The notes: generated by a model from the sequence alone, not told the origin. A stretch of 64,000 bases of DNA from Alphaproteobacteria bacterium (GCA_965203455.1 CBDBCV010000008.1:2604-66603); one strand, 5' to 3'. Positions 25,369 to 43,484 are shown, counted from the first letter of the stretch. Made by a program: numbers and translations.

Positions 25369-25400
25369 CGTAAGCGTCCGGCGTGACCGCCCCTGCGTGG

Positions 25401-26402
25401 TCAGTCGGCGGCTTCCCGATCTTCTGCGGGCGCGGTGTTCCACGGCAGCAGATCGTCGATGCGGTTGATCCTGTAGTCGGGGATGCGTTCGAGGACCTGA
25501 GCAAGCCAGGCCTGCGGATCGACATCGTTGAGCCTGGCGGTCTCGATCAGGGTGTAGGCGATGGCGGCGGCCCTGCCGCCGCTGGCCGAGCCCATGAAGA
25601 GATAGTTCTTGCGGCCGAGCGCGATCGGCCTCATTGCGCGTTCGGCGGGGTTGTTGTCGATCTCGAGGAAGCCGTGCTCGAGATAGGGTCGAAGGCGCTT
25701 CATCCGGGTCAGGGCATGACGGATCGCCGCTGCCAGCGGGGTCTTGGCGGAGATTCTGGGCAGCTGCGATTGCAGCCACCGCTCCAGCTCGTCGAGGCAC
25801 GGCGCGGCCTTGGCCTGGCGGATGGCCGCGCGGTTCTCGGGCGGCTGCCCGCGGGCCTCCTTCTCGATAGCGTAGAGGGCGGCGATCCGTTCCAGCGCCT
25901 CGGCGGCGATCGCCGAGCCCTGGGCGGCATGGACGTCGAAGAACTTGCGTCGCACATGCGCCAGACAGGCCACCTCGCGGACCGGCCCGGCGCGCGCCAG
26001 CGCACCGAACCCGGCATAGCCGTCCGAGTGCATCCAGCCGGCGAAGCCTTCAAGATGCGCCTTCGGATGCGCCGCCTTGCGGTCGGCCGAGAAGCGGTAC
26101 CAGGCCGCCGGCGGCGCCTCGCCAGCCCAGGGCCGCTCGTCCCGCACGTAGGTCCAGGCCCGGCCGGTCGCCGTTTTGCCGGTTCCCGGCGCCAGCAGCT
26201 TGACCGGGGTGTCGTCGGCGAACAGGGCTTGTCCTTCCAGCACATGGCGCCCGATCGCATCGGCCAGGGGCTCCAGCAGCGCCGTCGCCTTGCCGACCCA
26301 GCCGGCGAGCGTCGAGCGGTCGAGCTCGACGCCGTCGCGGGCGAAGATGCGGGACTGGCGGTAGAGCGGCAAGCGAGTCGCGCGGGGGAATCTCACCCCC
26401 AC
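25401..26402 (-). CDS. tnpC: IS66 transposase TnpC, exon-2-encoded C-terminal part (starts …LPLYRQ).
   Basis: IS66 TnpC core 'LPLYRQSRIFARDGVELDRSTLA…'. DDE region. Confidence 0.9.
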   Translation of the reverse strand: MGVRFPRATRLPLYRQSRIFARDGVELDRSTLAGWVGKATALLEPLADAIGRHVLEGQALFADDTPVKLLAPGTGKTATGRAWTYVRDERPWAGEAPPAAWYRFSADRKAAHPKAHLEGFAGWMHSDGYAGFGALARAGPVREVACLAHVRRKFFDVHAAQGSAIAAEALERIAALYAIEKEARGQPPENRAAIRQAKAAPCLDELERWLQSQLPRISAKTPLAAAIRHALTRMKRLRPYLEHGFLEIDNNPAERAMRPIALGRKNYLFMGSASGGRAAAIAYTLIETARLNDVDPQAWLAQVLERIPDYRINRIDDLLPWNTAPAEDREAAD

Positions 26403-28222
26403 GCGCTCCCAGAACCGTACGTGAACCTCTCAGCTCATACGGCTCCCAGCGTCCGGCCCTGCCCGTGCACAAGGGTCCAATGGGCGAACCGCCACGGCTC
26501 CGCTTTCGCGATTCTGGCAAGCCAGAGACGAGCCTGACGCGGTCGTTGTCGGAAGCGTTTGAACTTCCGCATTGCCCATCGCTGCAAGTGGGCGTCTATC
26601 AGACGAAGGGTCGGATAGAGCGCCGACTTGTAGAATGCGCCGAAGTAGCCGATCCACCCTGCAATTTCGCGATGAAACATGCGGGCAAGGTCAAGCAGTG
26701 CCTTGTCGCTACGCCGTTGCAAACGCCACTGTCGCACGCGGCGCCGAAACGCCTTGAGCGCAGTCGGGCTGGCAGCCGGAAGGAACGAGACCCCGAACAA
26801 CCCGCCGCGCCACGCCGCGAACCTTGGCTGGAAACGGTAGCCCAGGAAGTCGAACGCGACCGTCGGGTAGTCCGCCTTGCGGTTGGTATCCTTGCAGTAG
26901 ACCACCTTGGTCTTCTGCGGATGGACCTCCAGGCCGCACTCGGCCAATCGGTCCGCAACCCGCCGCCAGAGGGTCTTTGCCGCCTCCTCCGTTCGACAAT
27001 GGCAGATTATATCGTCCGCATACCGTTCGAACGGAACATGCGGCATCGACCTTTTCATCCATTGATCGAACGCATAGTGCAGGAACAGGTTGGACAATAC
27101 TGGCGAAATTACCCCGCCCTGTGGCGTGCCCCTGTCCCGTGCGACAACGGTGCCGTCCTCCTCGATCACGGGAGCCTTCAACCAGCGCTCGACATAGAGC
27201 AGCACCCACCGGCAGTCCGTATGGTGACGAACGGCCTTCAGCAGCAACTCGTGGTCGATGTTGTCGAAGAACCCCTTGATGTCCATGTCCAGCACCCAGT
27301 CGTAGCGCCAGCATCGCCGACGCGCTGTCCGGATGGCGTCAATGGCGGATCGCTTCGGCCGATATCCGTATGAGTCCTCATGGAAAATCGGTTCCAACAA
27401 GGGCTCCAGATGTCGGCGAACAACCTCCTGAGCGATGCGGTCCGTGACCGTCGGTATGCCCAACGGGCGCTTCCCGCCGCCCTCCTTGGGGATGTTCACC
27501 CTGCGAACCGGAGGCGGCATATAGCTGCCTGAGGACATGCGATTCCAGAGCTTGTAGAGTTCCGGACCAAGCCGTTCCTCCAGACTCTCGACCGTCTGCC
27601 CATCTACTCCAGCCGCTCCCCGGTTTGCCTTCACATGCTTGAAGGCTTCCCAGACTTCCCTCTTTGCTATCGGGAACGGCTTTGCCCCTGTCATCCGGCT
27701 CCTCCTGTCACCAGTTGGCCGACGGCAGCGGCTGAACACCACAGCCCCTTCGGTCCAGCGCCATTACAGCGCCTTCATCCCTACTACGGGCTGTTCTGCC
27801 CCTGTGCCCCGCATCGGTACTCTGAGCCTTCCGGGGGCTGCCCGGTTGGCCGTCTCCCTTGGCATCGGGACGACAGGTTCTCCTGTTCCGCAAGAAAGCC
27901 TGTTCCGGGTTCACGCCGCCTTCGAGCCGGATGCCGCGTGGGCCGGACTCCAGGACTCCGCCCATGCTTGTCCCGGAGTGACCACCACCCCCGGTTCTGA
28001 CATCGACCATACGCTTTCGGAAGTTCATCGGCGGTTCGCTTTCGCTCGTCTCCCCGGACCTCACCTGACGAGATCGTCGTCCCGCCGTTTCCACGACGCT
28101 CACCACCATCGCTCTTTACGACAGCAGCTCGTGGTGGTTTGAGACCGACGCCTGATCGTCGACCCCGAGGGGCCTACCCTCATCTCTCTTGCAGTTGCGC
28201 ACCTCCTTTCATGGCGGTGCTT
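26400..28222 (-). mobile_element. Group II intron (bacterial, ORF in domain IV) inserted in IS66 tnpC. Boundaries ±10 bp.
   Basis: Domain V 'GAGCCGTATGAGCTGAGAGGTTCACGTACGGTTCT' (minus strand, 26411–26445). Domain VI hairpin 'gggggtgagattccccc'. 5' end near 'GTGTG' at ~28222. Encodes an RT/maturase. Confidence 0.9.
26435..27742 (-). CDS. Group II intron reverse transcriptase/maturase
   Basis: RT motifs ('RPLGIPTVTDRIAQE', 'FLGYRF', YADD as 'RYADDIICHC'). Maturase X domain. 435 aa. Confidence 0.93.
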   Translation of the reverse strand: MVFSRCRRPTGDRRSRMTGAKPFPIAKREVWEAFKHVKANRGAAGVDGQTVESLEERLGPELYKLWNRMSSGSYMPPPVRRVNIPKEGGGKRPLGIPTVTDRIAQEVVRRHLEPLLEPIFHEDSYGYRPKRSAIDAIRTARRRCWRYDWVLDMDIKGFFDNIDHELLLKAVRHHTDCRWVLLYVERWLKAPVIEEDGTVVARDRGTPQGGVISPVLSNLFLHYAFDQWMKRSMPHVPFERYADDIICHCRTEEAAKTLWRRVADRLAECGLEVHPQKTKVVYCKDTNRKADYPTVAFDFLGYRFQPRFAAWRGGLFGVSFLPAASPTALKAFRRRVRQWRLQRRSDKALLDLARMFHREIAGWIGYFGAFYKSALYPTLRLIDAHLQRWAMRKFKRFRQRPRQARLWLARIAKAEPWRFAHWTLVHGQGRTLGAV

Positions 28223-28797
28223 CAGGACACACGGTGATCGCAATACTTCGAGACCAGCACATGCGCCAGAAGGCCGGGGCCCGGTCGGCCGCGCTCGATC
28301 GGTCGCGGCGGCAGCGGCGCCTGGTGGAACTTCTCGCAGCCGCCGCAGGCCAGGCGCGGACGGACGATGCGCTTCACCACGAAGCGGCCGGGGATGTACT
28401 CCAGCTCCTCCGTCACATCCTCGCCGAGCCGCTTGAGACGGCCGCCGCAGTCCGCGCAGCGCTCGCCCGGCGCGAGAACCGTCTCCTCGCGCGGCAGGTG
28501 GTCCGGCAGGGGACGGCGCTTCGGCTGCTTCTTCGTGGCGGGCGTCGGCTCGGTCGGCGCCTCGGCCGCCCGCGCGATCTCCTCGTCCTCCAGCCCGAGA
28601 TCAAGCTGGTCGAGGGCCTCCGAGGTGACGCCGAAGCGCTGCCGCCGCAGACCCGCAAGCTGGTGCCTGAGCTTCTCGATCAACAGATCGCGGTTGCGCA
28701 GCTCGGCGTCCCGTGCCGCCAGTTCGGCCCGCGAGGCCAGCACCATCGCCTTCAACGCGGCGATGTCGTCGGGCAGGGAATGGGCCGCTTCGAGCAT
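28222..28797 (-). CDS. tnpC: IS66 transposase TnpC, exon-1-encoded N-terminal part.
   Basis: Leucine-zipper-like N-terminus. Zn-finger 'CADCGG…CGGC'. Ends '…LVSKYCDH', exactly where the C-part resumes 'LPLYRQ'. Confidence 0.9.
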   Translation of the reverse strand: MLEAAHSLPDDIAALKAMVLASRAELAARDAELRNRDLLIEKLRHQLAGLRRQRFGVTSEALDQLDLGLEDEEIARAAEAPTEPTPATKKQPKRRPLPDHLPREETVLAPGERCADCGGRLKRLGEDVTEELEYIPGRFVVKRIVRPRLACGGCEKFHQAPLPPRPIERGRPGPGLLAHVLVSKYCDHRVS

Positions 28798-28871
28798 GGC
28801 CGCATCCTACCCGAAGGGGCCGACAAAGGGAAGCCCGAATGACAGTCAACCCATTGTTTATAAACGGTGAA

Positions 28872-29246
28872 TCAGCCCGCGGCCAGCGGTCTCCAGGTGC
28901 GAACCGGCGCCCGCCAGTCGATCCCCTCAAGCAGCATCGACAGCTGCGCCGGCGTCACCGACACCTTCCCTTCCGATGCCGACGGCCACACGAAGCGGCC
29001 GCGCTCCAGACGCTTCGAGAACAGGCACGCACCCTGGCCGTCCCACCAGATCATCTTGATCAGGTCGCCCCGGCGGCCGCGGTAGATGAAGAGATGGCCG
29101 CAATGCGGATCCGCCTTCAATACCCGCTCCGCCTGCGCCGCGAGACCGGGGAACCCCTTGCGCATGTCGGTCACGCCGCAGGCCAGCCATACCCGGGTCG
29201 AGGAGGGAACCGGGATCATCCGCCAAGCGCCCGCACCACCCGGCAC
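28872..29246 (-). CDS. tnpB: IS66 accessory protein TnpB
   Basis: 124 aa. '…[37 protein letters not shown]…' is the IS66 Orf2 family. Confidence 0.9.
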
Positions 29247-29563
29247 AGCGCGTCCGCGTCGAACGACCCGAACGCGCTCACCCGGTGGCCGTTCGACAAC
29301 GCGATCTCGATCCGACCGTCCGATGCCGCGGCCGGCTCCAACGGCAGCGCATCGGGCACCACCTCCACCGGCAGGAAGGACGGCGCCTCCCCGGCATCGG
29401 CCGCCGGCCTGTAACGGGGATCGCGCCGCCAGGTGAAGATCAGGTTGGCGTTGACGTCATAGCGGCGCGCCACAACCGACACCGAGACACCGGGAGCGTA
29501 GCTCTGCGCCACGATCCGGCGCTTCTCGTCGTCCGACCAGAACCGGCGTACCCGACGTGGCAC
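29216..29563 (-). CDS. tnpA: IS66 accessory protein TnpA
   Basis: 115 aa. '[42 protein letters not shown]' is the IS66 Orf1 HTH. Confidence 0.9.
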
Positions 29564-29576
29564 CGCAGCCCCCTAA

Positions 29577-29609
29577 GATAGTGTCCATTAGCCGATAATG
29601 GACACTATC
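29577..29609. promoter_or_regulatory. Perfect 14-bp inverted repeat with 5-bp spacer upstream of IS66 tnpA (putative operator/promoter element).
   Basis: 'gatagtgtccatta gccga taatggacactatc'. Recurs at 30057–30089 and 61309–61341 in the other copies. Confidence 0.5.
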
Positions 29610-29682
29610 GACCTCTGGAACCTCACCACAGACTGCGGCTCCAAGCCGTCTCGCCACAAGGGCGGTCACGCCAGACGCTTAC

Positions 29683-30159
29683 GACGCTTACGGATCATCC
29701 GCCCAGCACCCGCACCACCCGGCACAGCGCGTCCGCGTCGAACGACCCGAACGCGCTCACCCGGTGGCCGTTCGACAACGCGACCTCAATGCGACCGTCC
29801 AATGCCGCGGGCAGCTCCGGCGGCGGGTCGGGCACCACCTCCACCGGCAGGAAGGACGGCGCCTCCCCGGCATCGGCCGCCGGCTGATAACGGGGATCGT
29901 GGCGCCAGGTGAAGATCAGGTTGGCGTTCACGTCATAGCGGCGTGCAACCACCGACACCGAGACACCAGGAGCGTAGCTCTGCGCCACGATCCGGCGCTT
30001 CTCGTCGTCCGACCAGAACCGGCGTACCCGACGCCTCATCGCAGCCCCCAAACGATAGTGTCCATTAGCCGATAATGGACACTATCGACCTCAGGAACCT
30101 CGCCACAGACTGCGGCGCCAAACCGACCCGCCACAAGGCCGGTCACGCCAAACGCTTAC
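29683..30159 (-). mobile_element. Partial second IS66-like copy (left end and tnpA' only, ~90% identical to copy 1), abutting copy 1.
   Basis: Sequence homologous to 29212–29682 of copy 1, with SNPs. Contains the tnpA paralogue at 29695..30051 and the IR '…ggtcacgccaaacgcttac'. Confidence 0.8.
29695..30051 (-). CDS. tnpA: IS66 TnpA paralogue (from the partial copy)
   Basis: 118 aa, ~90% identical to the TnpA at 29216..29563. Confidence 0.85.
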   Translation of the reverse strand: MGAAMRRRVRRFWSDDEKRRIVAQSYAPGVSVSVVARRYDVNANLIFTWRHDPRYQPAADAGEAPSFLPVEVVPDPPPELPAALDGRIEVALSNGHRVSAFGSFDADALCRVVRVLGG

Positions 30160-30753
30160 GATCAAGCCGGCAGCGACAACGGAGCGCGCCACGGCCGCCC
30201 GAACGACGGCGTAGCCGTAGTTGAGCAGCGCATTCACGCCTTCGGCCTGTCGGTCGCGTCGGAACGATCTGCCGAAAAGACGCGGCCAGTAGCGCTGAGC
30301 GGCCTGGGCTTCAAGGTTCTCTGGATCTCCCGAGCGCACCCGGCGCGCCATCGGAGCGAGGCCGCCGTGACTTCCGGTGAAATGGGAAAGCACGGTGGCC
30401 TGCTGAACGATCTTGGCCCGCACGATCGCCTGCCACGCCCGTTTTCGAACCGGCGCGCTGATCTCGACTTGCGCCCGGTGACGTTCGGTCTGGACGTGAT
30501 GCGCGTCGAGCGGAAGCATCATTCCGGCGGGTAGATGATCGCGGCCGGTGACCAGCACGGTGGCGCCTGCCTCCAGAAGAGAGAGAAAGACGGACTGCGT
30601 GTAGGTCGCACGGATGTCATCGACGATGACGACGCCGAGATCCTCAATGGGGAGCGTCGCTTTCGGCAGGTCTGGCCGTTCGACCACGAGCTGGCTATTG
30701 GCGACCGAGAGGCGGGTGCCGGGAGTCGAGAACTCGATGGTCTTGCGGATCAT
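30160..30753 (-). pseudogene. cas1: CRISPR-associated Cas1, 3'-truncated by the IS66 insertion (N-terminal ~197 aa retained).
   Basis: 'MIRKTIEFSTPGTRLSVANSQLVV…RRVRSGDPENLEAQAAQRYWPRLFG…NALLNYGYAVVRAAVARSVVAAGL' matches type II Cas1. After 'AAGL' the frame runs into the IS66 IR. Start overlaps the cas9 3' end by 14 bp. Confidence 0.85.
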
Positions 30754-30765
30754 CGCCGGGCACGC

Positions 30766-31296
30766 TCAGTCGTTGGCGGGACGGATGCGACCGATCGGAT
30801 CGACGGAGACCTTCCTGCCGCCGCTTGAGATGATCGTCTTCGCGCCCGGGCGAAACACCGTCACGCCTTCGGCATCGTCATGGTCGACCATGACGACCTG
30901 GCCGGCCGACCATACGCTCTCGACAATCTTAAGCCTGGTTTCTCCGTTTCTGGTGAACTGCAACGAGTCGCCGGGAGCCAGCGACATCACGAACTGCGCG
31001 CCGTCGCCACAATCCCGCCGGACGACGGGTTCGTGCCGCGCCTTGCGACGCGATGCCTCCAGCAGGCTGACTACCTCGTAATCGACGGTTCCGTCGCACA
31101 GCCGGTAGATCGCGATGTGATGATTGTTGCCCAGGTCGGCATAGCCCGTTGATGCTTTCGTCATCAGCTCGATCTGCCGCTTCACGCGCAGGCGGACCTT
31201 GCGGATTTCGGGGCCTTTCCTGCCCCGTTTGGGATAGCCATCCACGAACGCCGCGCCGGGATCGCCACCGTGCTTGTCGACCCATCCTTGGACGAT
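30766..31296 (-). pseudogene. cas9: cas9 C-terminal (PAM-interacting) fragment.
   Basis: '…IVQGWVDKHGGDPGAAFVDGYPKRGRK…NHHIAIYRL…RLKIVESVWS…GRKVSVDPIGRIRPAND*'. Joins in frame to the upstream cas9 segment when the IS3 copy plus one 3-bp duplication are removed. Confidence 0.85.
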
Positions 31297-31356
31297 TGAG
31301 GTGGCGTCGCAAAATCGGACAGGTCGTCAAGGTGTATTCCGCCGTGTGACGGAGGA

Positions 31357-31644
31357 ATGCGGATGAGCAAGCGACGCAGGTTTTCGGGGGAGCTGAAGGC
31401 GAAGATAGCCTTGGAGGCGCTACGGGGTGATCGGACGCTTCAGGAGATTGCCTCGAAGCACCAGGTGCATCCGAACCAGGTGGGTGTGTGGAAGCGCCAG
31501 GCGATGGAGGGTCTGGGGGAGGTCTTTTCCGGTGGAGGTGAGCGCCGGGCGCGGGATCACGAGAGCGAGGTCCGGGCTCTTCACGCCAAGATCGGGGAGT
31601 TGATCGTAGAGCGTGATTTTTTGTCACGCGGGTCCGGTCGCTGA
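31357..31644 (+). CDS. IS3-family transposase OrfA (HTH)
   Basis: 'MRMSKRRRFSGELKAKIALEALRGDRTLQEIASKHQVHPNQVGVWKRQ'. Confidence 0.9.
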   Translation: MRMSKRRRFSGELKAKIALEALRGDRTLQEIASKHQVHPNQVGVWKRQAMEGLGEVFSGGGERRARDHESEVRALHAKIGELIVERDFLSRGSGR

Positions 31645-31664
31645 GCCGGTCCGGGAGACGGGCG

Positions 31665-32630
31665 ATGGTTGTGCGGGGCCACCCGTCGTTGAGCCTGACC
31701 CGGCAATGCCGTCTGCTGTCGATCGGGCGCTCGTCGCTCTATGACCGGCCGAAGGGGGAGAGCGCGGAGACGCTGGCTCTGATGCGCCGGATCGACGCGC
31801 TGTTCCTCAAGTATCCGTTCTACGGCGCCCGCCAGATGGTTCGGCATCTGCGCCGCGAGGGGGTGCGGATCGGGCGGCGGCGGGCCGCTCGCCTGATGCG
31901 CCTGCTTGGTCTTCAGGCGGTCTATCGGGCGCCGCGGACCAGTGCGCCGCACCTCGGGCACCGGGTTTATCCATATCTGCTGCGGGGTCTGGCGATCGAG
32001 CGGCCGAACCATGTGTGGTGCGCCGACATCACCTACATCCCGGTGCGGCGCGGCTTCCTCTACCTGGTGGCGATCATGGACTGGGCGAGCCGCTGCGTCC
32101 TGGCCTGGCGGCTGTCGAACACGCTGGACGCGGGGTTCTGTGTCGAGGCTCTCGACGAAGCCCTGGCGCGCCATGGCACCCCGCAGATCTTCAACACCGA
32201 CCAGGGCAGCCAGTTCACCGGCTTCGCCTTCACCGCGCGCCTGCGGGAGGCCGGTATCCGCATCTCGATGGACGGCCGCGGCCGGTGCATGGACAACATC
32301 TTCATCGAGCGGCTGTGGCGCTCGCTCAAATACGAGGCGGTCTACCTGCACGAGATCGCCGACGGCTTCGCAGCCCGGCGCGTCATCGGCCAGTGGATCG
32401 GCTTCTACAACACCGAGAGACCGCACTCGGCACTCGGCGGGCGGACGCCGGCCGAGGCCTACCGGGGCGACACGCCTGTGGATATGATGGACAAGCCGCT
32501 TCGCGCCTTGACCACATACCCACAGGCGCAACAGCAGCAGCAGAAAGATCGATCCAAGAGGATTCTGGCGGCACAAACTTCAACCGGAATACACCTTGAA
32601 AACGCCGTCAGCCTGTCCGACAAACCGACG
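31665..32630 (+). CDS. IS3-family transposase OrfB (DDE integrase core), expressed by frameshift from orfA. 3' end approximate.
   Basis: '…HVWCADITYIP…LVAIMDWASRCVLAW…FNTDQGSQFT…ERLWRSLKYE…'. The listed ORF extends to 32819 only because the IS end lacks a stop in this frame. Confidence 0.85.
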
Positions 32631-32638
32631 CCACCTCA

Positions 32639-32700
32639 GATGTCGCGCACGCCGTCATCGACGATGTCGACAATCTTAAGGATTGCGTTGGCTCGGCAGA
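32639..32700 (-). pseudogene. cas9: Short internal cas9 segment between the IS3 and IS91-family insertions (upper boundary uncertain).
   Basis: Frame '…KIVDIVDDGVRDI' is continuous with the C-terminal fragment across the IS3 copy. Confidence 0.45.
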
Positions 32701-32975
32701 GCCTACTCAATCCGATTGAGCGAAGGCGCGGTCGTCCGGCGCTGGCGTTGGCTATGTGGGAAGTATGTGGAGACAGCCGTCGGGCCGGACTGGCGGTGTG
32801 CCTGTTGTTGTCCGGTTGAGGCAGCTGATTACGACGGCTGCCGGTTTTTGGCGTCGGGCAGGCGAAGATCGAAGGGGCATCCGGGCCCTGCCTGGCATGC
32901 GGTCGTGCTCGCGGCCGCGCCGGTTGGTTGGCGGACAAGATGTCTGCGCTGTCGGGATCGAGGCAGGAAGCCGGT

Positions 32976-34199
32976 TCACGGCGGCGCATCCGGCGGTCCG
33001 CGGGGCGGATGTTGGCGGCGCCCGGAAGGGATGGGGCAGAGATGCCGCAACGCTCCGCCGCATTGGGGGCAGGCGACCGGCGCGGTCGCGCCGCTGCCGG
33101 GCTCCTCCCGGTCATCGCGGGCTTCGCCCCTGTCCTCATCGGCGCCGGCAGAACCGATGGCGCCGAGAGCTTCTCGCGCTCTTTGGACGGTGCTGGCGCA
33201 GCAGGAGTTGGCGAGGATGCCGAAGTGTCGGATGCGGTGCATGCCGTCGGGCAGCACATGGAGCAGGAAGCGGCGCATGAACTCGTCGACGGCAAGGGTG
33301 GCGGTGCTGTAGCGCGGCTTCTTCTGCCCCGGCTCCTTCGGCTTTCTGTGCCGGAAGGAGACGGTCTGGCCGTCGAAGGCGGTGATGCGGCTGTCGGAGA
33401 TGGCGATCCTGTGTGTATATCGGGACAGGTATCGGAACACTTGCTCCGGCCCCCGGAAGGGCTTCTTGGCATAGACCACCCAGTCCCTGCTGCGGGCGGC
33501 GGCGAGGGTGGCGCGGAACCTGTCGGGGTCGGCGAGGTGGGCGATGTCGCCGTGGAAGACGATCCCGCCCTTGCCCTGCGCCCGGGCGAGTTCTTCGAGG
33601 AAGCGACGTCGGAACAGGCTGGCGAGGACCCTGACGGGAGCCAGGAAGGCGCCGTTCCCGGACTTCCACGCGCCGCTGCCGACCTCGAAGCCGGCGTGAG
33701 GCACGACGACATGCAGATGGGGATGGAAGAGCAGCTTCTGGTCCCAGGTGTGCAGGACGGCGGTGCCGCCGATGCGCATGCCGCCGTGTCGGGGATCGGC
33801 CGCGATGGTGCGCAGCGTCTCGGCCACCGTTCGGAACAGGATGTCGAAGACGGCCCTTCGGTTGCAGAAGGCGATGGCGGCGATCGCTCTGGGCAGGGTG
33901 AAGACGACATGGAAGTAGGGCGCCGGCAGGATGTCGGCGGCGCGCGCCTCGCTCCAGCGATTGGCAGCGAGGCCCTGGCATGTGGGGCAGTGGCGGTTGC
34001 GGCAGGAGTTGTAGAGCGGATGCTCGCGCCCGCAGCCCTCGCAGCGGTACATGTGCCCGCCGAGCGCGGCGGTGCGGCATGCCTCGATCGCGCCCATGAC
34101 CCTGAGCCGCCCGGCGTCGAGCCGGCCGGCCATGCTCTCGCGGTAAGCGGGACCGGCGCGGCGGAAGATCTCCGCCACGCTGGCGCGCTCGCGCGCCAC
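32976..34199 (-). CDS. IS91-family transposase (HUH endonuclease, Y2)
   Basis: N-terminal Zn-finger 'CEGCGREHPLYNSCRNRHCPTC'. HUH 'HPHLHVVVP'. Twin tyrosines '…FRYLSRYTHRIAISDSRI'. Confidence 0.85.
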   Translation of the reverse strand: MARERASVAEIFRRAGPAYRESMAGRLDAGRLRVMGAIEACRTAALGGHMYRCEGCGREHPLYNSCRNRHCPTCQGLAANRWSEARAADILPAPYFHVVFTLPRAIAAIAFCNRRAVFDILFRTVAETLRTIAADPRHGGMRIGGTAVLHTWDQKLLFHPHLHVVVPHAGFEVGSGAWKSGNGAFLAPVRVLASLFRRRFLEELARAQGKGGIVFHGDIAHLADPDRFRATLAAARSRDWVVYAKKPFRGPEQVFRYLSRYTHRIAISDSRITAFDGQTVSFRHRKPKEPGQKKPRYSTATLAVDEFMRRFLLHVLPDGMHRIRHFGILANSCCASTVQRAREALGAIGSAGADEDRGEARDDREEPGSGATAPVACPQCGGALRHLCPIPSGRRQHPPRGPPDAPP

Positions 34200-34205
34200 G
34201 GCAGT

Positions 34206-35090
34206 TCAGCTGCGCAGGACCGGGAAGCCCGAGAGCGGGTGGTCGAGAGCCTCGAACATCCTGCCGGTGGCGCGGGCGTAGCCGCGGGTGGTGTCGGCGC
34301 TTCGATGGCCGAGCGCGTCGCGGATCACCTCCATATCCGCGCCCCGCTCGAGAAGATGCGTCGCCGCCGAGTGACGGAAGCTGTGGAAGCTGTGGCGGGG
34401 ATCGATGCCGACCTTGTCGCGCGCCGCCCTGAAGGCGCGGTGCAGGGCCGCCACCGACAGGGGCTTGTCTGGCGAGACGCCGTAGAACAGCCAGCTCGCC
34501 GGCTGCGGCCAGATGTTCTTCCAGTAACCGCGCAGGTAATCGATGACGCCGTCCGGCAACGGCGCCATCCTCTCGGCGCCGCCCTTGCCGGACGGGATGT
34601 GCAGGCACTTCCTGTCCGACTTGATGTCGCCGACCTTGACGGTCACGGTCTCGGAGACGCGGAGCCCGGCCGCGTAGGCGGTGACGAAGGCGGCGCGATG
34701 GCGGAGGTCGGGCGTGGCGAGAATCAGGCGCTCGACCTCCTGCTCCGTCATGTGGCGCGGCAGCATGTGGGGCTTCTTGCGATTGCGCAGCCCGGCCACG
34801 CGGTCGGGGCAGCCCAGCGTCTCGACATACAGGAACCTGAGGGCCGACAGCGTGGCATTGGTTGTCGCCGCACTGAGGCCCCGGTCGATCAGCCTCAGCA
34901 CCCAGGCGCGCAGCTGGTCGGCATCGAGATCGGCCGGCGAGGCCTTGTAGTGCTGAGCCAGCCGCCTGATCTCGAAGAGGTAGGAGTACTGCGTGCTCTC
35001 CGCCAGGTTGGCGATACGCATCTGCTCGATCATGCGTTGGCGGAGCGGGCTGCCCTGCGCCCGGTCGTGCGCTCTTGCAGTCATCATCGA
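34206..35090 (-). CDS. Tyrosine-type site-specific recombinase/integrase (associated with the IS91-family element).
   Basis: C-terminal catalytic 'HSFRHSAATHLLERGADMEVIRDALGHRSADTTRGY'. Start probably at 'MMTARAHD' (~35090); the listed ORF extends to 35141. Confidence 0.8.
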   Translation of the reverse strand, partial: SMMTARAHDRAQGSPLRQRMIEQMRIANLAESTQYSYLFEIRRLAQHYKASPADLDADQLRAWVLRLIDRGLSAATTNATLSALRFLYVETLGCPDRVAGLRNRKKPHMLPRHMTEQEVERLILATPDLRHRAAFVTAYAAGLRVSETVTVKVGDIKSDRKCLHIPSGKGGAERMAPLPDGVIDYLRGYWKNIWPQPASWLFYGVSPDKPLSVAALHRAFRAARDKVGIDPRHSFHSFRHSAATHLLERGADMEVIRDALGHRSADTTRGYARATGRMFEALDHPLSGFPVLRS

Positions 35091-35280
35091 TCTCCCGGGA
35101 TGACGACAGCGCGCCGCCGGTCCGTTCCGGCGACGGACCATCGAAGAGATCGATGCTAAACCGAGGACAGCCGCCGGACGCAGAAACCGGCACCAAACCC
35201 CACCATCACATCAAATTGTCAGAAAAGACCGAGACCGCGAAAGCGACAACTGCGCGAAGCGCCTTCGTTCAATCCTGGTT

Positions 35281-37841
35281 CCGTTGAAACGCTCGGATTC
35301 GGAGTTCTTCAGTTCCTCGACGGGCTTCCGGCGGACGAAATAGCGGTAGTTCGTCCCGCGCCCACCGGCGATTTCCTTGCCGGTATCGCCGTAGATTGTC
35401 TCCTTGTGGATCTGTCCGGAGACCTTCCTGCGGACCCGATGGGACACCACGATGGCCGCGGCCGCCCGATCGGCGTCGCTTCGAATCGTTCCCCAGGGCG
35501 GGGGAAGGTGCGGCTGGGGCGCGCGCGGATCGTCTTCTTCCTGCCAGTATCGCGCGAGCTGTTGCGTCATCCCGGGGTGGCAGCACGCGACCGCCAGCGC
35601 ATCGACCGCGTGATGGCGGTGATCGGCGCGGGTCTTCTCACCGTCGTCGGCCAAAATATTGTTCAGCCCCCAGAGGCGACGCAGATGCGCGGTGACGCGA
35701 CCGGACACAGCCTGGACGGTGACTGGTGCCTCCGGCCCGAGGTCCGGCCACAGCTTCTTGAGGTAGGCGGCGGCCTCGCGGGCGGCGTACCCGGTGTCGT
35801 TCAACTGCCGGGTGGCGAAATCCTCCGGGATGGAAGGCGCCAGGAATCGCCTGATCTTGCCGGAAGACATGCCCGTCCTGCCCTTGGCGGCCTTCATGCC
35901 GGCCAGTCGGTTCGCAAGGGCATCCCATTCTTCCTCGTTGCTTCGGAAGAACTCCTTCGGGGTCAGGTTACCCTTTTTGAGGTTCACGTCCTTGCGGCAG
36001 AGAGTCTTGTTCCTGAAGCCGTTGTCGAGCGAGCGGGATCTCGGCCAGATGTGCTCCACCTCAAACTCTCCGGTGCGGAACAGGGCGTCGAAGCAAATCG
36101 TGTCCCCGGTGTACGGACAGCGGTGGCCGCACTCCTCCCAGAGCATCCATTTCTCGACATCCGTGCGGGACGGTTCGGCGAACCCGTTCTCCTGGAGCGC
36201 CTCGCGGGCCGCCTTCCGGCGCCGTTCCTGGCGGCGGATGCCCGACGCCTTTTCCTCGCGCTGGCGCTTTGAGTTGCCGACATCGCGCGCGACTTCGACG
36301 CGAATCAGGTCCGGCTTGCCGTACAGGTCGATCAGATTGTTGACCACCTTGCGCAGCTCATTGCGCGTGCGGGCGACCGTCGGGTTGCGCAGGCTGGCGA
36401 GGCGTTCCCTTTCTTCGCGGTCAGTCGGGCTCGGAAGGCGATCGAACACCTCGCCTGTCGGCTGTTCCCGATCGGGAAACGTCTCCGCTCGCCACGCCTC
36501 CCAATCGGGACTCATGACCAGTTCGCCGAACCTGACCCCGGCTTCGAGATGCGGCAGCATCGCCTGCAGCGCCTCGACGGAATAGGGCTCCCAGCCGGAC
36601 GGCAGTTTCAACGTCTCGATCTTGGTCGCCTGATCGTTCGACAGGCCGAACTCCCCGACGAAATTCCGCACGACTTCCGCCCTGCGCTTCGTTCGCTCGG
36701 CCCTGGGAAGAATGACCACGCGCTGAGCGCCCACCTGTTCGTATTCGGCCTGCCAAGTCCGGTGGGGAAGGGTATCCCGGAGTTCCTGCTTGCGCGGATG
36801 CTCCTGCCAATCGCTGCCGAAAATATCCGAGAGCTTCGCCTCCACCGGATTGCCGAGCAGTTTCTTCTCTCCGCTTTCCTCCAGGTTGAACTTGAGCGCC
36901 CTCTCCTCGCCGGGTTCGCCGCGGGCCCGGTAGAGCGGTGCGAGCGCCTGCCGAACGCCGGGCCAGGTCATCGAGGCCTGCGTTTGCAATTTGGAGAGAA
37001 TGGCCGAGCGTTCTTTGAGGTCGAGAGGACGCTGATTGCCGCCGGCAAGCGCGAGGTTGTTCAACTTCTCGAGCATGCGCCGCTGCTGCGAGAGCCAGGA
37101 CCCCTTGGGACAGAGGCGCGCGCCGGGGACGAACCGGCATTTGCCGAGCGTGTTCAGTCGCCAGAAGACGGGCCGCTGGACGAAGATTGCGTCCCGAACG
37201 GAAGAGCGGGATGACCCCGGAACGAGCGGCTTCCACACCCTCTCGAACTCATCCTCGACGATATCCCGCGTGGCATGCTCACCCCGCTTGCGCTCATGCG
37301 GTCCCCGTGCGGCGAGCCAGGCGCCGAGCGTCTTGCGCTCGCGCTTCAATGCCTGAACGGTTTGATCCCGCGCGGACGTCGCTTTCTTGTCGTCTGCATC
37401 ATCGGGCGCGTCATCGGCAGTGTCGGAAACCTCGTCGATATCGCGGCCCCTGAAGTGGCGGCGCTGCGCAAGGTGATAGATGGCGCGGCCGATTTCATGG
37501 GTAGACAGCGTCTCGTCCTCAAACGCGCGCCGCCGGAGATCGTAGGGATCGCGCTTCATGACCCGATCCCAGTCGGACGAATTGCGCGATGGCAGCAATC
37601 CGGCGGCATGCAATAGATCGCCGAGCAGGCGCCGGCGCTCTCGCCGACGGCGCAGTTGACGGCGGCGAAGACGGGCCCGCCGCCGCTCCTGGTTCAACGG
37701 CACGCCCTTCGGATCGCGGGCTTCCGGGAAGATTCGCACGCCGAGACGGTGGATTTTTCCCGTGGCGAGCTCGGGATCGTGGTCGATCACGGCGAACCCG
37801 ACCGAGGTTGTACCGATGTCGAGGCCGAATACGAGCGGCAT
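35281..37841 (-). pseudogene. cas9: cas9 N-terminal ~855 aa (RuvC-I, bridge helix, REC, HNH, RuvC-II/III), disrupted downstream by the IS91-family element. Start codon lies within the IS256 target duplication.
   Basis: RuvC-I 'GLDIGTTSVGFAV'. Arg-rich bridge helix. HNH 'EVEHIWPRSRSLDNGFRNKTLCRKDVNLKKGN'. RuvC-III 'HHAVDALAV'. Native sequence ends near '…RKPVEELKNSE'. Confidence 0.9.
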
Positions 37842-37847
37842 GCGAGG

Positions 37848-39126
37848 GTGACGTAAGAATTTATGTGTCAGGCGGGAAGGGGGTACTCCCTGTGGTGATG
37901 ACAACCACAAGCAGGAGCACCCCGCATGTCCCAGCAAGCTGCGACGATCATGAGCCTACCGCAGGCGTTTGAGGTGGTGAAGGAGATGCAGGCAGGCGGA
38001 CTGGACTGGGGCGAGGGTTATCGCCCGCTCGGCCGCCAGGCGCTGGCCGAGATCATTGAGGGCCGGATGGCCGAGGCGGTGGACCGCTGGCTCGACAACC
38101 TGGACGCCGGCGCGATGCGCGACCGGCGCAACGGCACCTACCGGCGCTGCCTGCTGAGCGAGCTCGGCGACATCGAGTTCAACGTGCCGCGCACCCGGCA
38201 CTTCTGCCCGACCGGTGTTCTGAAGAGCTATGCAAGGCGCGCGCCGGAGATCGACCGCGCCATCCTGGCCGGCTTCGTGCTGGGGCTCTCGACGCGCAAG
38301 GTCGGCGAGGTCTTGCTGGCTCTGCTCGGATGTCCGGTCTCGGCCGCGACGGTCAGCCGGGTCGCCAGGACGCTCGACATGGCGGTCGCGGCCTTCCACC
38401 GCAGGCCGCTGAAGAACGCCTACAAGGCGCTGATGCTCGACGGCGTGGTGCTGGCCCGCAAGACCGGCGCCGGCGCGCTCAGGAGGCCGGTCCTGGTGGC
38501 GCTGGGCATCCGCCCCGACGGCAAGAAGGAGATCATCGACTTCCAGCTGGCCGGCAGCGAGAGCGCCGCGGAGTGGGAAGCGTTCCTCAACCGGCTCTAC
38601 CACCGCGGGCTCACCGGAGAGGGCCTGGAGATGATCTGCGTCGATGGCGGCAAGGGCCTGCTGGCCGCCTTGCCCTTCGTCTATCCCGGCATCCCGGTTC
38701 AGAGGTGCTGGGCGCACAAGATGCGCAACATCCTCAACAGGGTCCGCGAGGCCGACCAGGAGGCCGTCAAGGCCGACGTCCACGCCGTCATGAATGCCCC
38801 CAACCGCCGCAAGGCCCAGAGCGCCGCGCGGCGCTTCGCCGACCGTTGGCAGAGCGCTTACCCCAAGGCGGTCGACTGCCTGCGCAACGATCTCGACGAT
38901 CTGCTCACCTGCTACCGCTACAGGACCCTTGCCGAGCGAAAGCGGGTCAGGACCACAAACGCCATCGAACGAAGGTTCCGGGAGGTCCGCAGACGAACAC
39001 GGCCCATGGGAACCTTCCAGGACCCAACCTCAATGGACCGCGTCCTCTACGCGGTCTTCATCCACGAAAACAAGTCTCAGGGAATCAGCACCCCCGTCTC
39101 CCTGACACATAACTCTTGACGTTACC
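37848..39126 (+). mobile_element. IS256-family IS (~1279 bp) inserted exactly at the cas9 start codon.
   Basis: Imperfect IRs 'gtgacgtaagaatttatgtgtcagg' and 'ggtaacgtcaagagttatgtgtcagg' (reverse complement). 8–9-bp duplication '(c)atgcgagg' at 37839–37847 and 39127–39135 contains the cas9 ATG. Confidence 0.85.
37926..39119 (+). CDS. IS256-family (mutator-type) transposase
   Basis: 397 aa. 'RCWAHKMRNI' and DDE motifs are typical of IS256 Tnp. Confidence 0.9.
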   Translation: MSQQAATIMSLPQAFEVVKEMQAGGLDWGEGYRPLGRQALAEIIEGRMAEAVDRWLDNLDAGAMRDRRNGTYRRCLLSELGDIEFNVPRTRHFCPTGVLKSYARRAPEIDRAILAGFVLGLSTRKVGEVLLALLGCPVSAATVSRVARTLDMAVAAFHRRPLKNAYKALMLDGVVLARKTGAGALRRPVLVALGIRPDGKKEIIDFQLAGSESAAEWEAFLNRLYHRGLTGEGLEMICVDGGKGLLAALPFVYPGIPVQRCWAHKMRNILNRVREADQEAVKADVHAVMNAPNRRKAQSAARRFADRWQSAYPKAVDCLRNDLDDLLTCYRYRTLAERKRVRTTNAIERRFREVRRRTRPMGTFQDPTSMDRVLYAVFIHENKSQGISTPVSLTHNS

Positions 39127-39135
39127 CATGCGAGG

Positions 39136-39300
39136 CGACCCTGTTGCTTTTCCGGTTCAGAATGTTAGCCTTGCGTTTGTAGCAAATCGAGAAGCGGTCG
39201 GTTTCCTTTTCGCAGCAAATCGATCCTTCGTGCGGGCTCGGTGTCCCAGGATCGTCCACCGGCATCAAAAAGCCTCCGTCCTCTGACGGGGGCTTTTCGC
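39136..39300. ncRNA. Candidate tracrRNA / anti-repeat remnant immediately upstream of the cas9 start (strand unresolved).
   Basis: Contains 'gtttgtagcaaatcgagaagcggtcggtttccttttcgcagcaaat', which resembles type II-C repeat/anti-repeat ends (GTTGTAGC…TTTCGCAG…GCTACAA). Nexus-like 'AAGGC' on the cas9 strand. Nested hairpins. Bidirectional intrinsic terminator at 39272–39297. Confidence 0.35.
39272..39297. terminator. Bidirectional rho-independent terminator
   Basis: 'gcctccgtcctctgacgggggc' hairpin flanked by A5 upstream and T4 downstream. Confidence 0.6.
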
Positions 39301-39431
39301 TTCTCAAGGACATCGCGATGAGGCCACAGTCTTGCCGGAACACTGGTATGTTCTTCGATGATTGGCTTGGGGCTTGCAGCGAAATCGGCTTGCAACAATG
39401 GGCGGTGCGCACGTTCCACAGCGGGAACTCC

Positions 39432-39692
39432 TCACTCAGTATCTCCGTTCATCGTCTCCTTCATCGTCCTGCGGGCCGCGTCGACGAGGTCATCGAGTTC
39501 CTTCTCCCGCCGGGTGTCGAGCAATTCGTCCCAGTCGAGGGTCGCCATCATGTATACTATGCGGTAGATCGCCTCGATGAGCGCGAGGTGCCCGGGCGTC
39601 GCCGCGGGCGGGGGCGTTTCGCCCAAGTGGTCCTCGGCCAGCGCGATCGCTCCCGTGCGGACGAGTTCGCCGGCAGGGGTTCCGTGCCGCAT
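39432..39692 (-). CDS. Small hypothetical protein (86 aa)
   Basis: '…MMATLDWDELLDTRREKELDDLVDAARRTMKETMNGDTE'. Terminated by the 39272–39297 hairpin. No recognisable family. Confidence 0.35.
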   Translation of the reverse strand: MRHGTPAGELVRTGAIALAEDHLGETPPPAATPGHLALIEAIYRIVYMMATLDWDELLDTRREKELDDLVDAARRTMKETMNGDTE

Positions 39693-43116: not shown

Positions 43117-43176
43117 TGAGGTGGCGTCGCAAAATCGGACAGGTCGTCAAGGTGTATTCCGCCGTGTGACGGAGGA

Positions 43177-43464: not shown

Positions 43465-43484
43465 GCCGGTCCGGGAGACGGGCG

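What the first reader, a model, noticed from the sequence alone, without database searches (positions are those of the whole stretch)
30160..39300. Degraded type II (probably II-C) CRISPR-Cas locus: cas9 hit by three different IS families, cas1 truncated by IS66, cas2 and the array missing.
The cas9 fragments are colinear once the inserts are removed. (i) An IS256 inserted exactly at the ATG, so the ATG lies in the 8–9-bp duplication '(c)atgcgagg'; cas9 is uncoupled from its upstream region. (ii) An IS91-family element sits after residue ~855. (iii) An IS3 copy sits in the PAM-interacting domain. The frame is restored across the IS3 with its GAT duplication (1345 ≡ 1 mod 3). Cas1 stops after '…VARSVVAAGL' at the inverted repeat of a partial IS66. 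Nothing downstream resembles cas2 or repeats, which implies an IS66-associated deletion. Three independent IS hits plus a deletion suggest the locus was inactivated first and then tolerated. It could also have been selected against, for example by self-targeting or to allow plasmid uptake.
Basis: partly seen in the sequence, partly recalled or inferred. Interest (0 to 1): 0.65.

Follow-up and report, generated by a model that had tools for sequence, protein, structure and literature searches.

The report
Transposon-wrecked type II-C CRISPR-Cas remnant
This is a dead bacterial CRISPR-Cas9 immune locus, with cas9 cut into three pieces by three different jumping genes, cas1 cut short by a fourth and cas2 plus the spacer array gone; it is a clear but ordinary example of a known way that bacteria lose CRISPR immunity.

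Summary

**cas9.** It lies on the minus strand in three collinear pieces:
- 37841→35271
- 32671→32639
- 31296→30766

**The three inserts:**
- An IS256-family element at 37847-39126. Its 8-bp duplication CATGCGAG contains the start codon.
- A 2.6-kb IS91-family element at 32672-35270, inserted after codon 857.
- An IS3 element at 31297-32638, with a GAT duplication, inserted after codon 868.

**Reconstituted gene.** Removing the inserts gives one open 1043-codon gene. Its protein is 88-91% identical over its full length to intact 1043-aa Cas9 proteins in metagenome-assembled genomes. Those genomes carry tracrRNA, cas9, cas1, cas2 and a 36-nt-repeat array, which is the II-C layout.

**Rest of the locus.**
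- cas1 keeps 198 of 311 codons and stops at the GTAAGCG end of a partial IS66.
- No cas1 3' part, cas2 or repeat occurs anywhere in the 64 kb.
- An intact tracrRNA gene survives at 39178-39297(+), beyond the IS256.

**Age and order of events.**
- A second public contig has the same IS256 and IS91 junctions but an empty IS3 site, so the IS3 hit came last.
- dN/dS and the intact reading frame indicate recent inactivation.

**Not resolved.** Deletion rather than relocation of the array, and selection rather than neutral decay, remain open.

IS insertion into cas genes is already documented (PMC10359306), so interest is low.

The parts
39178..39297 (+). Intact, now orphan tracrRNA gene, divergent from cas9. 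The anti-repeat starts at 39179. A predicted promoter has -35 TTGCTT at 39144-39149 and -10 TAGCCT at 39166-39171. A terminator hairpin at 39271-39293 is followed by TTTT.
   Evidence: It is the only match in the window to the relatives' repeat half. In relatives the same motif lies about 50 nt upstream of cas9 on the opposite strand, and again in their arrays. The region is 84-92% identical to relatives. The -35 TG and the -10 TAnnnT are invariant in 20 loci. The terminator stem shows compensatory changes. The duplex with the relatives' repeat has -56.7 kcal/mol, against -18 +/- 3.5 for shuffled sequences. A terminator-like site was found by the scan.
39127..39134 (.). Copy of the 8-bp IS256 target duplication CATGCGAG. 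It is still joined to the native cas9 upstream region and contains a copy of the ATG.
   Evidence: Flank comparison.
37847..39126 (+). IS256-family insertion sequence (1280 bp). The transposase gene is at 37926-39119(+).
   Evidence: Inverted repeats (I4). NF033543 transpos_IS256, E=1.2e-88. 8-bp direct duplication.
35271..37841 (-). cas9 fragment A: codons 1-857, covering RuvC-I through RuvC-III. The ATG at 37841-37839 lies in the second copy of the IS256 duplication (37839-37846).
   Evidence: Translation. Alignment to intact Cas9 proteins. blastn to L002-L010 positions 10001-12570 at 86-91% identity.
32672..35270 (-). IS91-family element (2599 bp, ends ambiguous by up to 4 nt). It encodes a tyrosine recombinase (34206-35141, or 34206-35087 from a later start) and a Y2/HUH transposase (32976-34199).
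   Evidence: NF033538 transpos_IS91, E=3e-114. Recombinase hits to XerA/XerC/integron-integrase models. Boundaries come from collinearity with intact cas9. The same element at the same site occurs in independent contig L026.
32639..32671 (-). cas9 fragment B: codons 858-868 (VDIVDDGVRDI). The last codon, ATC, is one copy of the IS3 duplication.
31297..32638 (+). IS3-family element (1342 bp). orfA is at 31357-31644 and orfB runs from 31665. It has a 3-bp GAT duplication. It is one of three copies in the window that are 99.9-100% identical.
   Evidence: Inverted repeats (I2). NF033516 transpos_IS3, E=1e-80. Self-blast. The site is empty in L026.
30766..31296 (-). cas9 fragment C: the second copy of the ATC duplication, then codons 869-1043 and the TGA stop (C-terminal lobe).
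30160..30753 (-). Truncated cas1: 198 of 311 codons. It starts 12 nt after the cas9 stop. It lacks the C-terminal part, which in relatives holds the HHRH...DD motif.
   Evidence: TIGR03639 cas1_NMENI, E=3e-53, covering profile positions 2-197 of 278. 94% identity to residues 1-201 of the Cas1 of L004, and nothing for residues 198-311. DNA homology ends at 30161.
29692..30159 (-). Partial IS66-family element ('IS66b'): the left terminus GTAAGCG... plus tnpA only. It is 92% identical to the neighbouring IS66.
   Evidence: (IS66 TnpA).
25371..29682 (-). Complete IS66-family element ('IS66a': tnpA, tnpB, tnpC), with a group II intron (26372-28181) inside tnpC. It has no target duplication. A 9-nt repeat of its own tip (GTAAGCGTC, 29683-29691) separates it from IS66b. 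A 99.9%-identical twin lies at 57103-61414.
   Evidence: (intron). The left outside flank is a TRAP DctM gene.

Best explanation
The region is the non-functional remnant of a type II-C CRISPR-Cas locus. The ancestral layout was a divergent tracrRNA, then cas9-cas1-cas2, then a 36-nt-repeat array.

**Shown**
- Four transposition events hit the cas genes:
  - An IS256-family element landed on the cas9 start codon. It separates the coding body from its own 5' region.
  - An IS91-family element landed after codon 857.
  - An IS3 element landed after codon 868. This was the latest event, because a sister contig still has that site empty.
  - An IS66-family end replaces everything after cas1 codon 198.
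- The longest product cas9 can now give is 857 Cas9 residues plus a 19-residue tail read from the IS91. It lacks the C-terminal 186 residues.
- Cas1 lacks its C-terminal third.
- cas2 and the array are absent from the 64 kb.
- The tracrRNA gene is intact but has no partner.

**Inferred**
- The missing cas1 3' end, cas2, array and the conjugative-element genes that follow them in relatives were removed by an IS66-associated deletion. That deletion joined the locus to chromosomal DNA.
- All events are recent. The three cas9 pieces still form a perfect ORF with normal dN/dS.
- The events accumulated in a dispensable, IS-saturated island, so no selection for each hit needs to be invoked.
For: **Anatomy and duplications**
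-.

**Family assignments**
- Cas9 TIGR01865 1e-168; cas1_NMENI 3e-53; IS256, IS91, IS3 and IS66 TnpA models.

**Collinearity**
- The reconstituted Cas9 has 1043 codons and no internal stop.
- It is 88-91% identical over 100% of its length to intact 1043-aa proteins.
- blastn homology to more than 10 loci stops exactly at each IS junction.

**Ancestral layout**
- Intact relatives show cas9, cas1 (311 aa), cas2 (101 aa) and arrays of 2 to 131 repeats starting about 50 nt after cas2. A tracrRNA anti-repeat lies about 50 nt upstream of cas9 on the other strand.

**Loss of cas2 and the array**
-.

**tracrRNA intact**
-.

**Independent confirmation and order of events**
- L026 is 99.9% identical through the IS256 and IS91 junctions, with a clean empty IS3 site.

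**Recency**
- Pairwise dN/dS of the window's cas9 is 0.12-0.22. Intact relatives give about 0.11-0.21, with higher values only for the closely related L007/L008 pair and for pairs involving the frameshifted L017.
- The IS3 copies are 99.9-100% identical, and the two IS66::intron copies are 99.9% identical.

**Deletion inference**
- IS66a and its twin lack 8-bp duplications.
- The DNA beyond IS66a is a TRAP transporter gene. It is not the TrwC relaxase found after the array in relatives.

**Precedent**
- 163 natural IS insertions into cas genes have been reported, from 20 IS families (PMC10359306).
Against: - Only 64 kb of the genome is available, so an array or a second cas locus elsewhere cannot be excluded.
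- The deletion mechanism is inferred from missing duplications, not observed. The odd 9-nt repeat at the IS66b/IS66a joint is unexplained.
- The order of the IS256, IS91 and IS66 events is unknown.
- L026 is a short metagenomic contig. Its empty IS3 site could in principle reflect a rare precise excision rather than the ancestral state.
- The IS91 ends are defined only by comparison with intact cas9. GATT occurs on both sides, and no second copy of the element was available.
- The assignment of codons 857-868 to the PAM-interacting domain was not tested.
Confidence: 0.9

Rival explanations
1. The cas1 3' end, cas2 and the array were not lost. Recombination or inversion between IS66 copies moved them to another place in the genome, where the array could serve another Cas9 together with the surviving tracrRNA.
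For: IS66a and its twin both lack target duplications, which is the signature of inter-IS exchange as much as of deletion. At least three IS66-type elements lie in the window. The tracrRNA gene is fully intact, promoter and terminator included.
Against: No repeat, cas2 or cas1 C-terminus occurs within 64 kb. The two identical IS66 copies are in direct orientation, which favours deletion over inversion. No second cas9 is seen in the window.
Confidence: 0.15
2. Inactivation was selected rather than neutral. Loss of interference was favoured because the array targeted the chromosome or a useful mobile element, and the first IS hit was the escape mutation.
For: IS insertion into cas genes as an escape route from CRISPR-imposed costs has been shown experimentally and surveyed in genomes (PMC10359306). 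Both the interference part (cas9) and the adaptation part (cas1, cas2) and the array are all gone. Related loci sit in conjugative-element contexts with SSB and a TrwC relaxase, where conflicts between elements are expected.
Against: No spacers survive to test targeting. None of 591 unique spacers from related arrays matches the window. The whole 25-64 kb stretch is saturated with IS elements. I counted about ten elements and about 18 kb of non-IS target, of which cas9 makes up about 18%. Three hits in cas9 are therefore not more than chance (my estimate). A neighbouring nuclease gene is also hit twice.
Confidence: 0.2
3. The insertions are assembly artefacts: repeats were placed wrongly in a metagenome assembly, and the real gene is intact.
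For: The related sequences come from metagenome-assembled genomes. Several relatives show frameshifts that could be sequencing errors.
Against: The IS256 and IS3 insertions have exact target duplications of the length typical for their families. The IS256 and IS91 junctions recur at 99.9% identity in an independently assembled contig from another sample. The truncated 876-aa product is recorded on four contigs.
Confidence: 0.03
4. The remnant still works in a reduced way. For example, the 876-residue Cas9 fragment could act with the tracrRNA as a regulator.
For: The tracrRNA gene is intact. The RuvC and HNH motifs in fragment A are unchanged relative to intact relatives.
Against: The coding body is cut off from its own 5' region by the IS256. 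The C-terminal 186 residues are missing from any single product. No crRNA source is present. dN/dS gives no sign of a new selective regime.
Confidence: 0.03

Closest known systems
Type II-C CRISPR-Cas loci of Proteobacteria (Neisseria meningitidis type, 'Nmeni' subtype; from my memory also Parvibaculum lavamentivorans Cas9)
   Same: - cas9-cas1-cas2 operon only (definition in PMC3737331).
- Cas9 of about 1040-1080 aa. The best solved-structure matches are 1082-1095-aa Cas9 chains such as 6jdq and 6kc8, which I recall as N. meningitidis Cas9.
- Cas1 fits the cas1_NMENI model.
- 36-nt repeats with a 66-nt period in relatives.
- The anti-repeat lies upstream of cas9, as is usual for II-C.
   Different: - Here the locus is dead. 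cas9 is in three pieces, cas1 is truncated, and cas2 and the array are absent.
- Sequence identity to solved Cas9 proteins is low; matches are confined mainly to the HNH/RuvC core.
- The resemblance of the tracrRNA to the P. lavamentivorans guide scaffold is from memory and was not tested.
Natural IS insertions that inactivate cas genes (Sheng et al. 2023, Nat Commun, PMC10359306)
   Same: Insertion sequences with target duplications sit inside cas genes and abolish CRISPR function. That survey found 163 events from 20 IS families in 57 genera.
   Different: - This case combines three different IS families in one cas9 gene with a fourth at cas1 and loss of the array.
- It occurs in an uncultured alphaproteobacterium, not a complete reference genome.
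IS91-family elements that carry a tyrosine recombinase gene upstream of the HUH/Y2 transposase
   Same: A recombinase of the integron-integrase-like subgroup sits next to an IS91 transposase, as reported for IS91 elements (bioRxiv 10.1101/542381; model hits).
   Different: The flanks here are AATC/GATT, not the GAAC/CAAG tetranucleotide that I recall for IS91 itself. The ends could not be checked against a second copy.

Membership tests
Type II CRISPR-Cas | Cas9 signature protein with RuvC-like and HNH nuclease domains | tested here: met
   The reconstituted 1043-aa protein matches TIGR01865 at E=1.3e-168. Relatives at 88-91% identity carry PF13395 HNH_4, PF18541 RuvC_III and PF18470. The gene itself is interrupted, so the feature is met only after the inserts are removed in silico.
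Type II CRISPR-Cas | tracrRNA with an anti-repeat complementary to the CRISPR repeat | tested here: met
   The anti-repeat lies at 39179-39197. The duplex with the relatives' repeat has -56.7 kcal/mol, against -18 for shuffled sequences. The promoter and terminator are conserved. No Rfam family covers it.
Type II CRISPR-Cas | CRISPR repeat-spacer array | tested here: not met
   There is no array in the 64 kb. Relatives have arrays of 2 to 131 repeats. The window holds a remnant, not a complete system.
Subtype II-C | Adaptation genes cas1 and cas2 only, with no csn2 (II-A) and no cas4 (II-B) | tested here: inconclusive
   In the window, cas1 is truncated and the DNA where cas2, csn2 or cas4 would lie is gone. 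In the two relatives with gene lists (L001, L002), cas9-cas1-cas2 is followed directly by the array, with no csn2 or cas4 call. In further relatives the repeats start at the same offset. Cas1 fits cas1_NMENI.
IS256 family | Mutator-type DDE transposase, terminal inverted repeats of about 26 bp, 8-9-bp target duplication | tested here: met
   NF033543, E=1e-88. Inverted repeats of 26-27 nt. Duplication CATGCGAG(G).
IS3 family | orfA and orfB transposase genes, TG...CA inverted repeats, 3-4-bp target duplication | tested here: met
   NF033516 hits on both ORFs. 27-nt inverted repeats TGAGGTGG...CCACCTCA. GAT duplication. The programmed frameshift was not examined.
IS91 family | HUH/Y2 rolling-circle transposase; no terminal inverted repeats; no target duplication; insertion next to a GAAC or CAAG tetranucleotide | tested here: inconclusive
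   The transposase feature is met (NF033538, E=3e-114; Pfam Y2_Tnp in L026). No inverted repeats were reported for its ends. The flanks show GATT on both sides, which could be a 4-bp repeat or a coincidence. A GAAC lies just inside one end. The tetranucleotide rule is from my memory.
IS66 family | tnpA-tnpB-tnpC genes, inverted repeats starting GTAAGCG, 8-bp target duplication | tested here: inconclusive
   The genes and the GTAAGCG termini are present. No 8-bp duplication flanks IS66a or its twin, and IS66b is only a left end. This fits secondary deletion or recombination.

The most novel reading that the evidence does not exclude
This II-C module may be cargo of a conjugative or mobilizable element that circulates among distantly related bacteria. 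Relatives at 61-91% identity sit in genomes labelled Alphaproteobacteria, Gammaproteobacteria (including a sponge-associated family) and Synechococcus. In the two relatives examined (L001, L002) the module lies between SSB and TrwC relaxase genes. Its stepwise destruction in this host, together with double IS hits in a neighbouring nuclease gene, would then reflect selection by the host or by resident elements against an incoming element-borne immune system, not neutral decay.
Probability: 0.12. Interest if true: 0.4.

Novelty: new member of a known kind. Interest (0 to 1): 0.2.

Why it matters
- The locus is a clean, fully resolved natural example of how insertion sequences dismantle a CRISPR-Cas9 system. 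Four IS families are involved, the junctions are base-exact, and a sister contig fixes part of the order of events.
- It adds an uncultured alphaproteobacterial case to a phenomenon so far surveyed mostly in complete reference genomes.
- For annotation, the scattered 'Cas9' and 'Cas1' fragments here should be called pseudogenes. This genome should not be scored as CRISPR-competent on the strength of a cas9 hit.
- The reconstituted 1043-aa Cas9, its tracrRNA and the relatives' 36-nt repeat define a usable II-C ortholog family. That family is already represented by intact copies elsewhere.

Tried and rejected
- **My first guess at the IS91 junction was wrong.** I joined '...VEELKN' to 'AILKIVD...' and got 1037 aa. 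Alignment to intact proteins showed that cas9 continues through 'NSESERFNGTRI' and resumes at 'VDIVDD', giving 1043 aa.
- **Source genome and uninterrupted allele not recovered.**
  - An exact-pattern scan of JGI metagenomes for the end of this cas1 allele found nothing.
  - Exact look-ups found nothing on record for four window products: the Cas1 fusion ORF, an MBL-fold protein, the IS91 transposase and the IS256 transposase.
  - The exact reconstituted Cas9, and the product expected from an allele with only the IS3 insertion, are not in the 15-billion-protein collection.
- **No sign of relaxed selection.** Pairwise dN/dS of the window's cas9 lies in the range of intact relatives, so it gives no evidence for long-standing pseudogene status.
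- **No sign of targeting.** None of 591 unique spacers from related arrays matches the window.
- **No Rfam family for the tracrRNA.** This held at the gathering threshold and at E up to 10.
- **RNAalifold misfolds the anti-repeat.** It folds the anti-repeat back on the tracrRNA body because the crRNA partner is absent. Only the terminator hairpin, with its compensatory changes, is informative.
- **IS91 ends not defined by plasmid search.** A blastn search of plasmids matched only the transposase core at 67-69% identity.
- **tmRNA gene not the island's attachment site.** The tmRNA gene lies at 14204-14523. The 14.5-25.3 kb stretch next to it looks chromosomal: an exonuclease, a DUF294 protein, a Rieske oxygenase and a TRAP transporter.


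Full report
**What is in the sequence**

On the minus strand between 30160 and 39300 lie, in order:
- a divergent small-RNA gene
- a cas9 gene in three pieces
- a truncated cas1
- IS66 elements

The ORF list and direct reading of the sequence show a Cas9 N-terminus, MPLVFGLDIGTTSVGF..., starting at 37841. NCBIfam models identify all the parts:

| Part | Model | E-value |
|---|---|---|
| Reconstituted Cas9 | TIGR01865 | 1.3e-168 |
| 220-aa ORF at 30091-30753 | type II Cas1 (cas1_NMENI) | 2.9e-53, profile positions 2-197 of 278 only |
| ORF at 37926-39119 | IS256 transposase | 1.2e-88 |
| ORF at 32976-34199 | IS91 transposase | 3.4e-114 |
| ORF at 34206-35141 | Xer/integron-integrase-like tyrosine recombinase | 5.1e-43 (best model, XerA) |
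| ORFs at 31357-31644 and from 31665 | IS3 orfA and orfB | 4.6e-10 and 1.2e-80 |
| ORF at 29695-30051 | IS66 TnpA | 5.4e-32 |

**Exact junctions**

*IS256-family element, 37847-39126.*
- It has 26-nt inverted repeats.
- CATGCGAG flanks it on both sides, at 37839-37846 and at 39127-39134. One further shared G makes the duplication 8 or 9 bp long.
- The cas9 ATG is the reverse complement of the CAT in that duplication.
- One ATG therefore stays with the coding body, and the other stays with the native upstream DNA.

*IS3 element, 31297-32638.*
- It is 1342 bp long, with TGAGGTGG...CCACCTCA inverted repeats.
- It is flanked by GAT on both sides.

*IS91-family element, 32672-35270.*
- It has no inverted repeats, so its limits were set by comparison with intact genes.
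- My first guess at the junction gave 1037 aa and was wrong.
- This places the element after codon 857. The uncertainty is 4 nt, because GATT (minus strand) occurs at both junctions.
- The cas9 piece between the IS91 and the IS3 is only 33 nt long.

*Reconstituted gene.*
- Splicing 37841-35271, 32671-32642 and 31296-30766 gives 3132 nt. That is 1043 codons and one terminal stop.

**Comparison with intact loci**

- The reconstituted protein is 88-91% identical over its whole length to many 1043-aa proteins.
- Twenty-five related loci were fetched.
- At the DNA level, homology to more than ten of them runs as follows:

| Window | Relatives' locus coordinates | Content |
|---|---|---|
| 37841→35272 | 10001→12570 | cas9 fragment A |
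| 31296→30161 | 12602→13737 | cas9 fragment C and the retained part of cas1 |
| 33-nt fragment B | the intervening 31 nt | cas9 fragment B |

- The breaks coincide with the IS ends to the base.
- The intact loci have these parts:
  - cas9
  - cas1 (311 aa), starting 12 nt after cas9
  - cas2 (101 aa)
  - an array starting about 50 nt after cas2
- The array has a 36-nt repeat, ACTGTAGCAAATCGAGAAGCGGCCGCAATCCGCAGC on the cas strand. It has a 66-nt period and 2 to 131 repeats.
- No csn2 or cas4 is called in the two loci with gene lists (L001, L002).
- This matches the II-C definition of a cas9-cas1-cas2 operon (PMC3737331).
- The best solved-structure matches are 1082-1095-aa Cas9 chains. From memory I take these to be Neisseria meningitidis Cas9.

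**What is missing**

- cas1 in the window ends at 30160/30161. It keeps 198 of 311 codons and is 94% identical to the Cas1 of L004.
- It runs into the GTAAGCG terminus of an IS66 element.
- The lost part includes the segment that reads [23 protein letters not shown] in relatives. From general knowledge of Cas1 I take this to hold the catalytic His and Asp residues.
- Three searches for the missing parts were negative:
  - tblastn with the Cas1 C-terminus and with Cas2 finds nothing better than E=0.1 in 64 kb.
  - TRF finds no array.
  - The two repeat halves, searched with up to 3 mismatches, give one hit only.

**The surviving tracrRNA**

- That single hit, at 39179-39197 on the plus strand, is the anti-repeat of a tracrRNA gene.
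- In every relative examined the same motif lies about 50 nt upstream of cas9 on the opposite strand.
- The 125-nt stretch 39179-39304 is 84-92% identical to relatives.
- Across 20 loci, a -35 TTGC and a -10 TAnnnT are conserved just upstream of the anti-repeat.
- A terminator hairpin with compensatory changes follows.
- The window's anti-repeat pairs with the relatives' repeat at -56.7 kcal/mol. Shuffled sequences give -18 +/- 3.5 kcal/mol.
- This meets the four-step criterion of Chylinski et al.:
  - an anti-repeat
  - an intergenic position
  - base pairing with the repeat
  - a promoter and a terminator
- The IS256 sits about 10 nt from the predicted -35 and leaves the gene intact.

**The IS66 side**

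- The IS66 fragment that abuts cas1 (29692-30159, 'IS66b') has only a left end and tnpA.
- Nine nucleotides follow it (GTAAGCGTC on the minus strand). They repeat the tip of the next element.
- Then comes a complete IS66 (25371-29682, 'IS66a'), whose tnpC carries a group II intron.
- A 99.9%-identical twin lies at 57103-61414 in the same orientation.
- Neither twin has the 8-bp duplication expected of the family.
- Beyond IS66a lies a TRAP-transporter DctM gene and other chromosomal-looking genes. The TrwC relaxase that follows the array in the two relatives with gene lists is not there.
- The simplest reading is an IS66-associated deletion that removed the cas1 3' end, cas2, the array and the downstream element genes.
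- This is inference. Relocation elsewhere in the genome is not excluded.

**Order and age of events**

- The truncated 876-aa product (857 Cas9 residues plus 19 read from the IS91) is recorded on four contigs.
- One of them, L026 (6.4 kb, sample ERZ26693745), is 99.9% identical to the window from inside the IS256 through the IS91.
- It then continues straight into cas9 fragment C, with a single ATC. That is a clean empty IS3 site.
- The IS3 therefore inserted into a gene that was already broken twice.
- Several results point to recent events rather than long decay:
  - The IS3 copies are 99.9-100% identical to each other, and the IS66 twins are 99.9% identical.
  - The three cas9 pieces have no frameshift or stop.
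  - Pairwise dN/dS of the window's cas9 is 0.12-0.22. Intact relatives give about 0.11-0.21, with higher values only for the closely related L007/L008 pair and for pairs involving the frameshifted L017.

**Is three hits in one gene remarkable?**

- Not within its neighbourhood.
- From 25.4 to 64 kb I count about ten IS elements and only about 18 kb of non-IS DNA.
- cas9 makes up about 18% of that target, so about two of ten hits are expected there.
- The adjacent PD-(D/E)XK gene is itself split into three collinear pieces by the other two IS3 copies.
- Related loci also show damage:
  - cas1 interrupted by an IS21-like element (L024)
  - an IS66 in the array and a 5'-truncated cas9 (L016)
  - a frameshifted cas9 (L017)
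- The pattern fits IS accumulation in dispensable, horizontally acquired DNA.
- Selection for loss of immunity, as shown experimentally and surveyed by Sheng et al. (PMC10359306), remains possible but cannot be tested without spacers.
- None of 591 unique spacers from relatives matches the window.

**Verdict**

- The thing is a new instance of a known kind of event, not a new kind of system.
- The host is an alphaproteobacterium, judged by its permuted alpha-type tmRNA.
- The nearest cas9 relatives are in metagenome-assembled genomes labelled Thalassobaculaceae, Paracoccaceae and other Proteobacteria.

Noticed in passing
window 42646-46350 (+): A PD-(D/E)XK nuclease gene (PF14281, with a weak hit to PADLOC candidate PDC-S26) is split into three collinear pieces by the two other IS3 copies. 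These lie at 43117-44458 (AAT duplication) and at 44909-46250 (flanks GAG and GAT). Removing both gives one 337-aa ORF. All three IS3 copies in the window therefore sit in cas9 or in this neighbouring gene.
   Followed up: partly
window 25371-29682 and 57103-61414: Two 99.9%-identical IS66 elements each carry the same group II intron inside tnpC (Rfam domains at 26372-28181 and 58104-59913, with a reverse-transcriptase ORF). The IS therefore seems to have moved with the intron in place. The twins are direct repeats that bracket the whole CRISPR remnant. Neither has an 8-bp target duplication.
   Followed up: partly
window 29683-29691: A 9-nt copy of the IS66a terminus (GTAAGCGTC on the minus strand) sits between the truncated IS66b and the complete IS66a. 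It is not IS66b internal sequence. No mechanism is proposed.
   Followed up: partly
L026 (ena:ERZ26693745:contig_111), whole contig: An independent 6.4-kb contig has the same cas9::IS256 and cas9::IS91 junctions but an empty IS3 site. It shows a pre-IS3 allele in the population.
   Followed up: yes
L024 13696-17070; L016 10001 and 14240-16750; L017 about 12015-12070; L012 8561-13280: Related loci are also damaged or rearranged. In L024, cas1 is interrupted near residues 185-194 by a 3.4-kb IS21-like element. In L016, an IS66 element sits in the array and cas9 lacks its first 148 codons. In L017, cas9 is frameshifted; this is a second copy in the same genome as L006. In L012, cas1 and cas2 lie upstream of cas9, and the array follows cas9 directly. 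Some frameshifts may be long-read errors.
   Followed up: partly
L001 and L002, 4000-19000: In L001 and L002 the intact II-C module lies between SSB and YAcAr genes on one side and a TrwC-type relaxase on the other, so it looks like cargo of a conjugative or mobilizable element. Cas9 relatives at 61-74% identity occur in genomes labelled Gammaproteobacteria (including Candidatus Poriferihabitaceae) and Synechococcus, which suggests wide horizontal spread. In the window only the SSB gene (56647-57011) and a small upstream gene (39432-39692) remain of this context.
   Followed up: partly
window 14204-14523 (-): A permuted alphaproteobacterial tmRNA gene (Rfam RF01849, 258 bits). The DNA between it and the IS-rich region looks chromosomal, so it is probably not the attachment site of the island.
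   Followed up: partly
window 52510-56337 (+), 47000-50100, 62730-63971 (-): Three further features of the IS-rich stretch: a 1275-aa STAND-type NTPase with many TPR repeats (no PADLOC hit), a third and different IS66-family element, and a second Mutator/IS256-type transposase gene.
   Followed up: no
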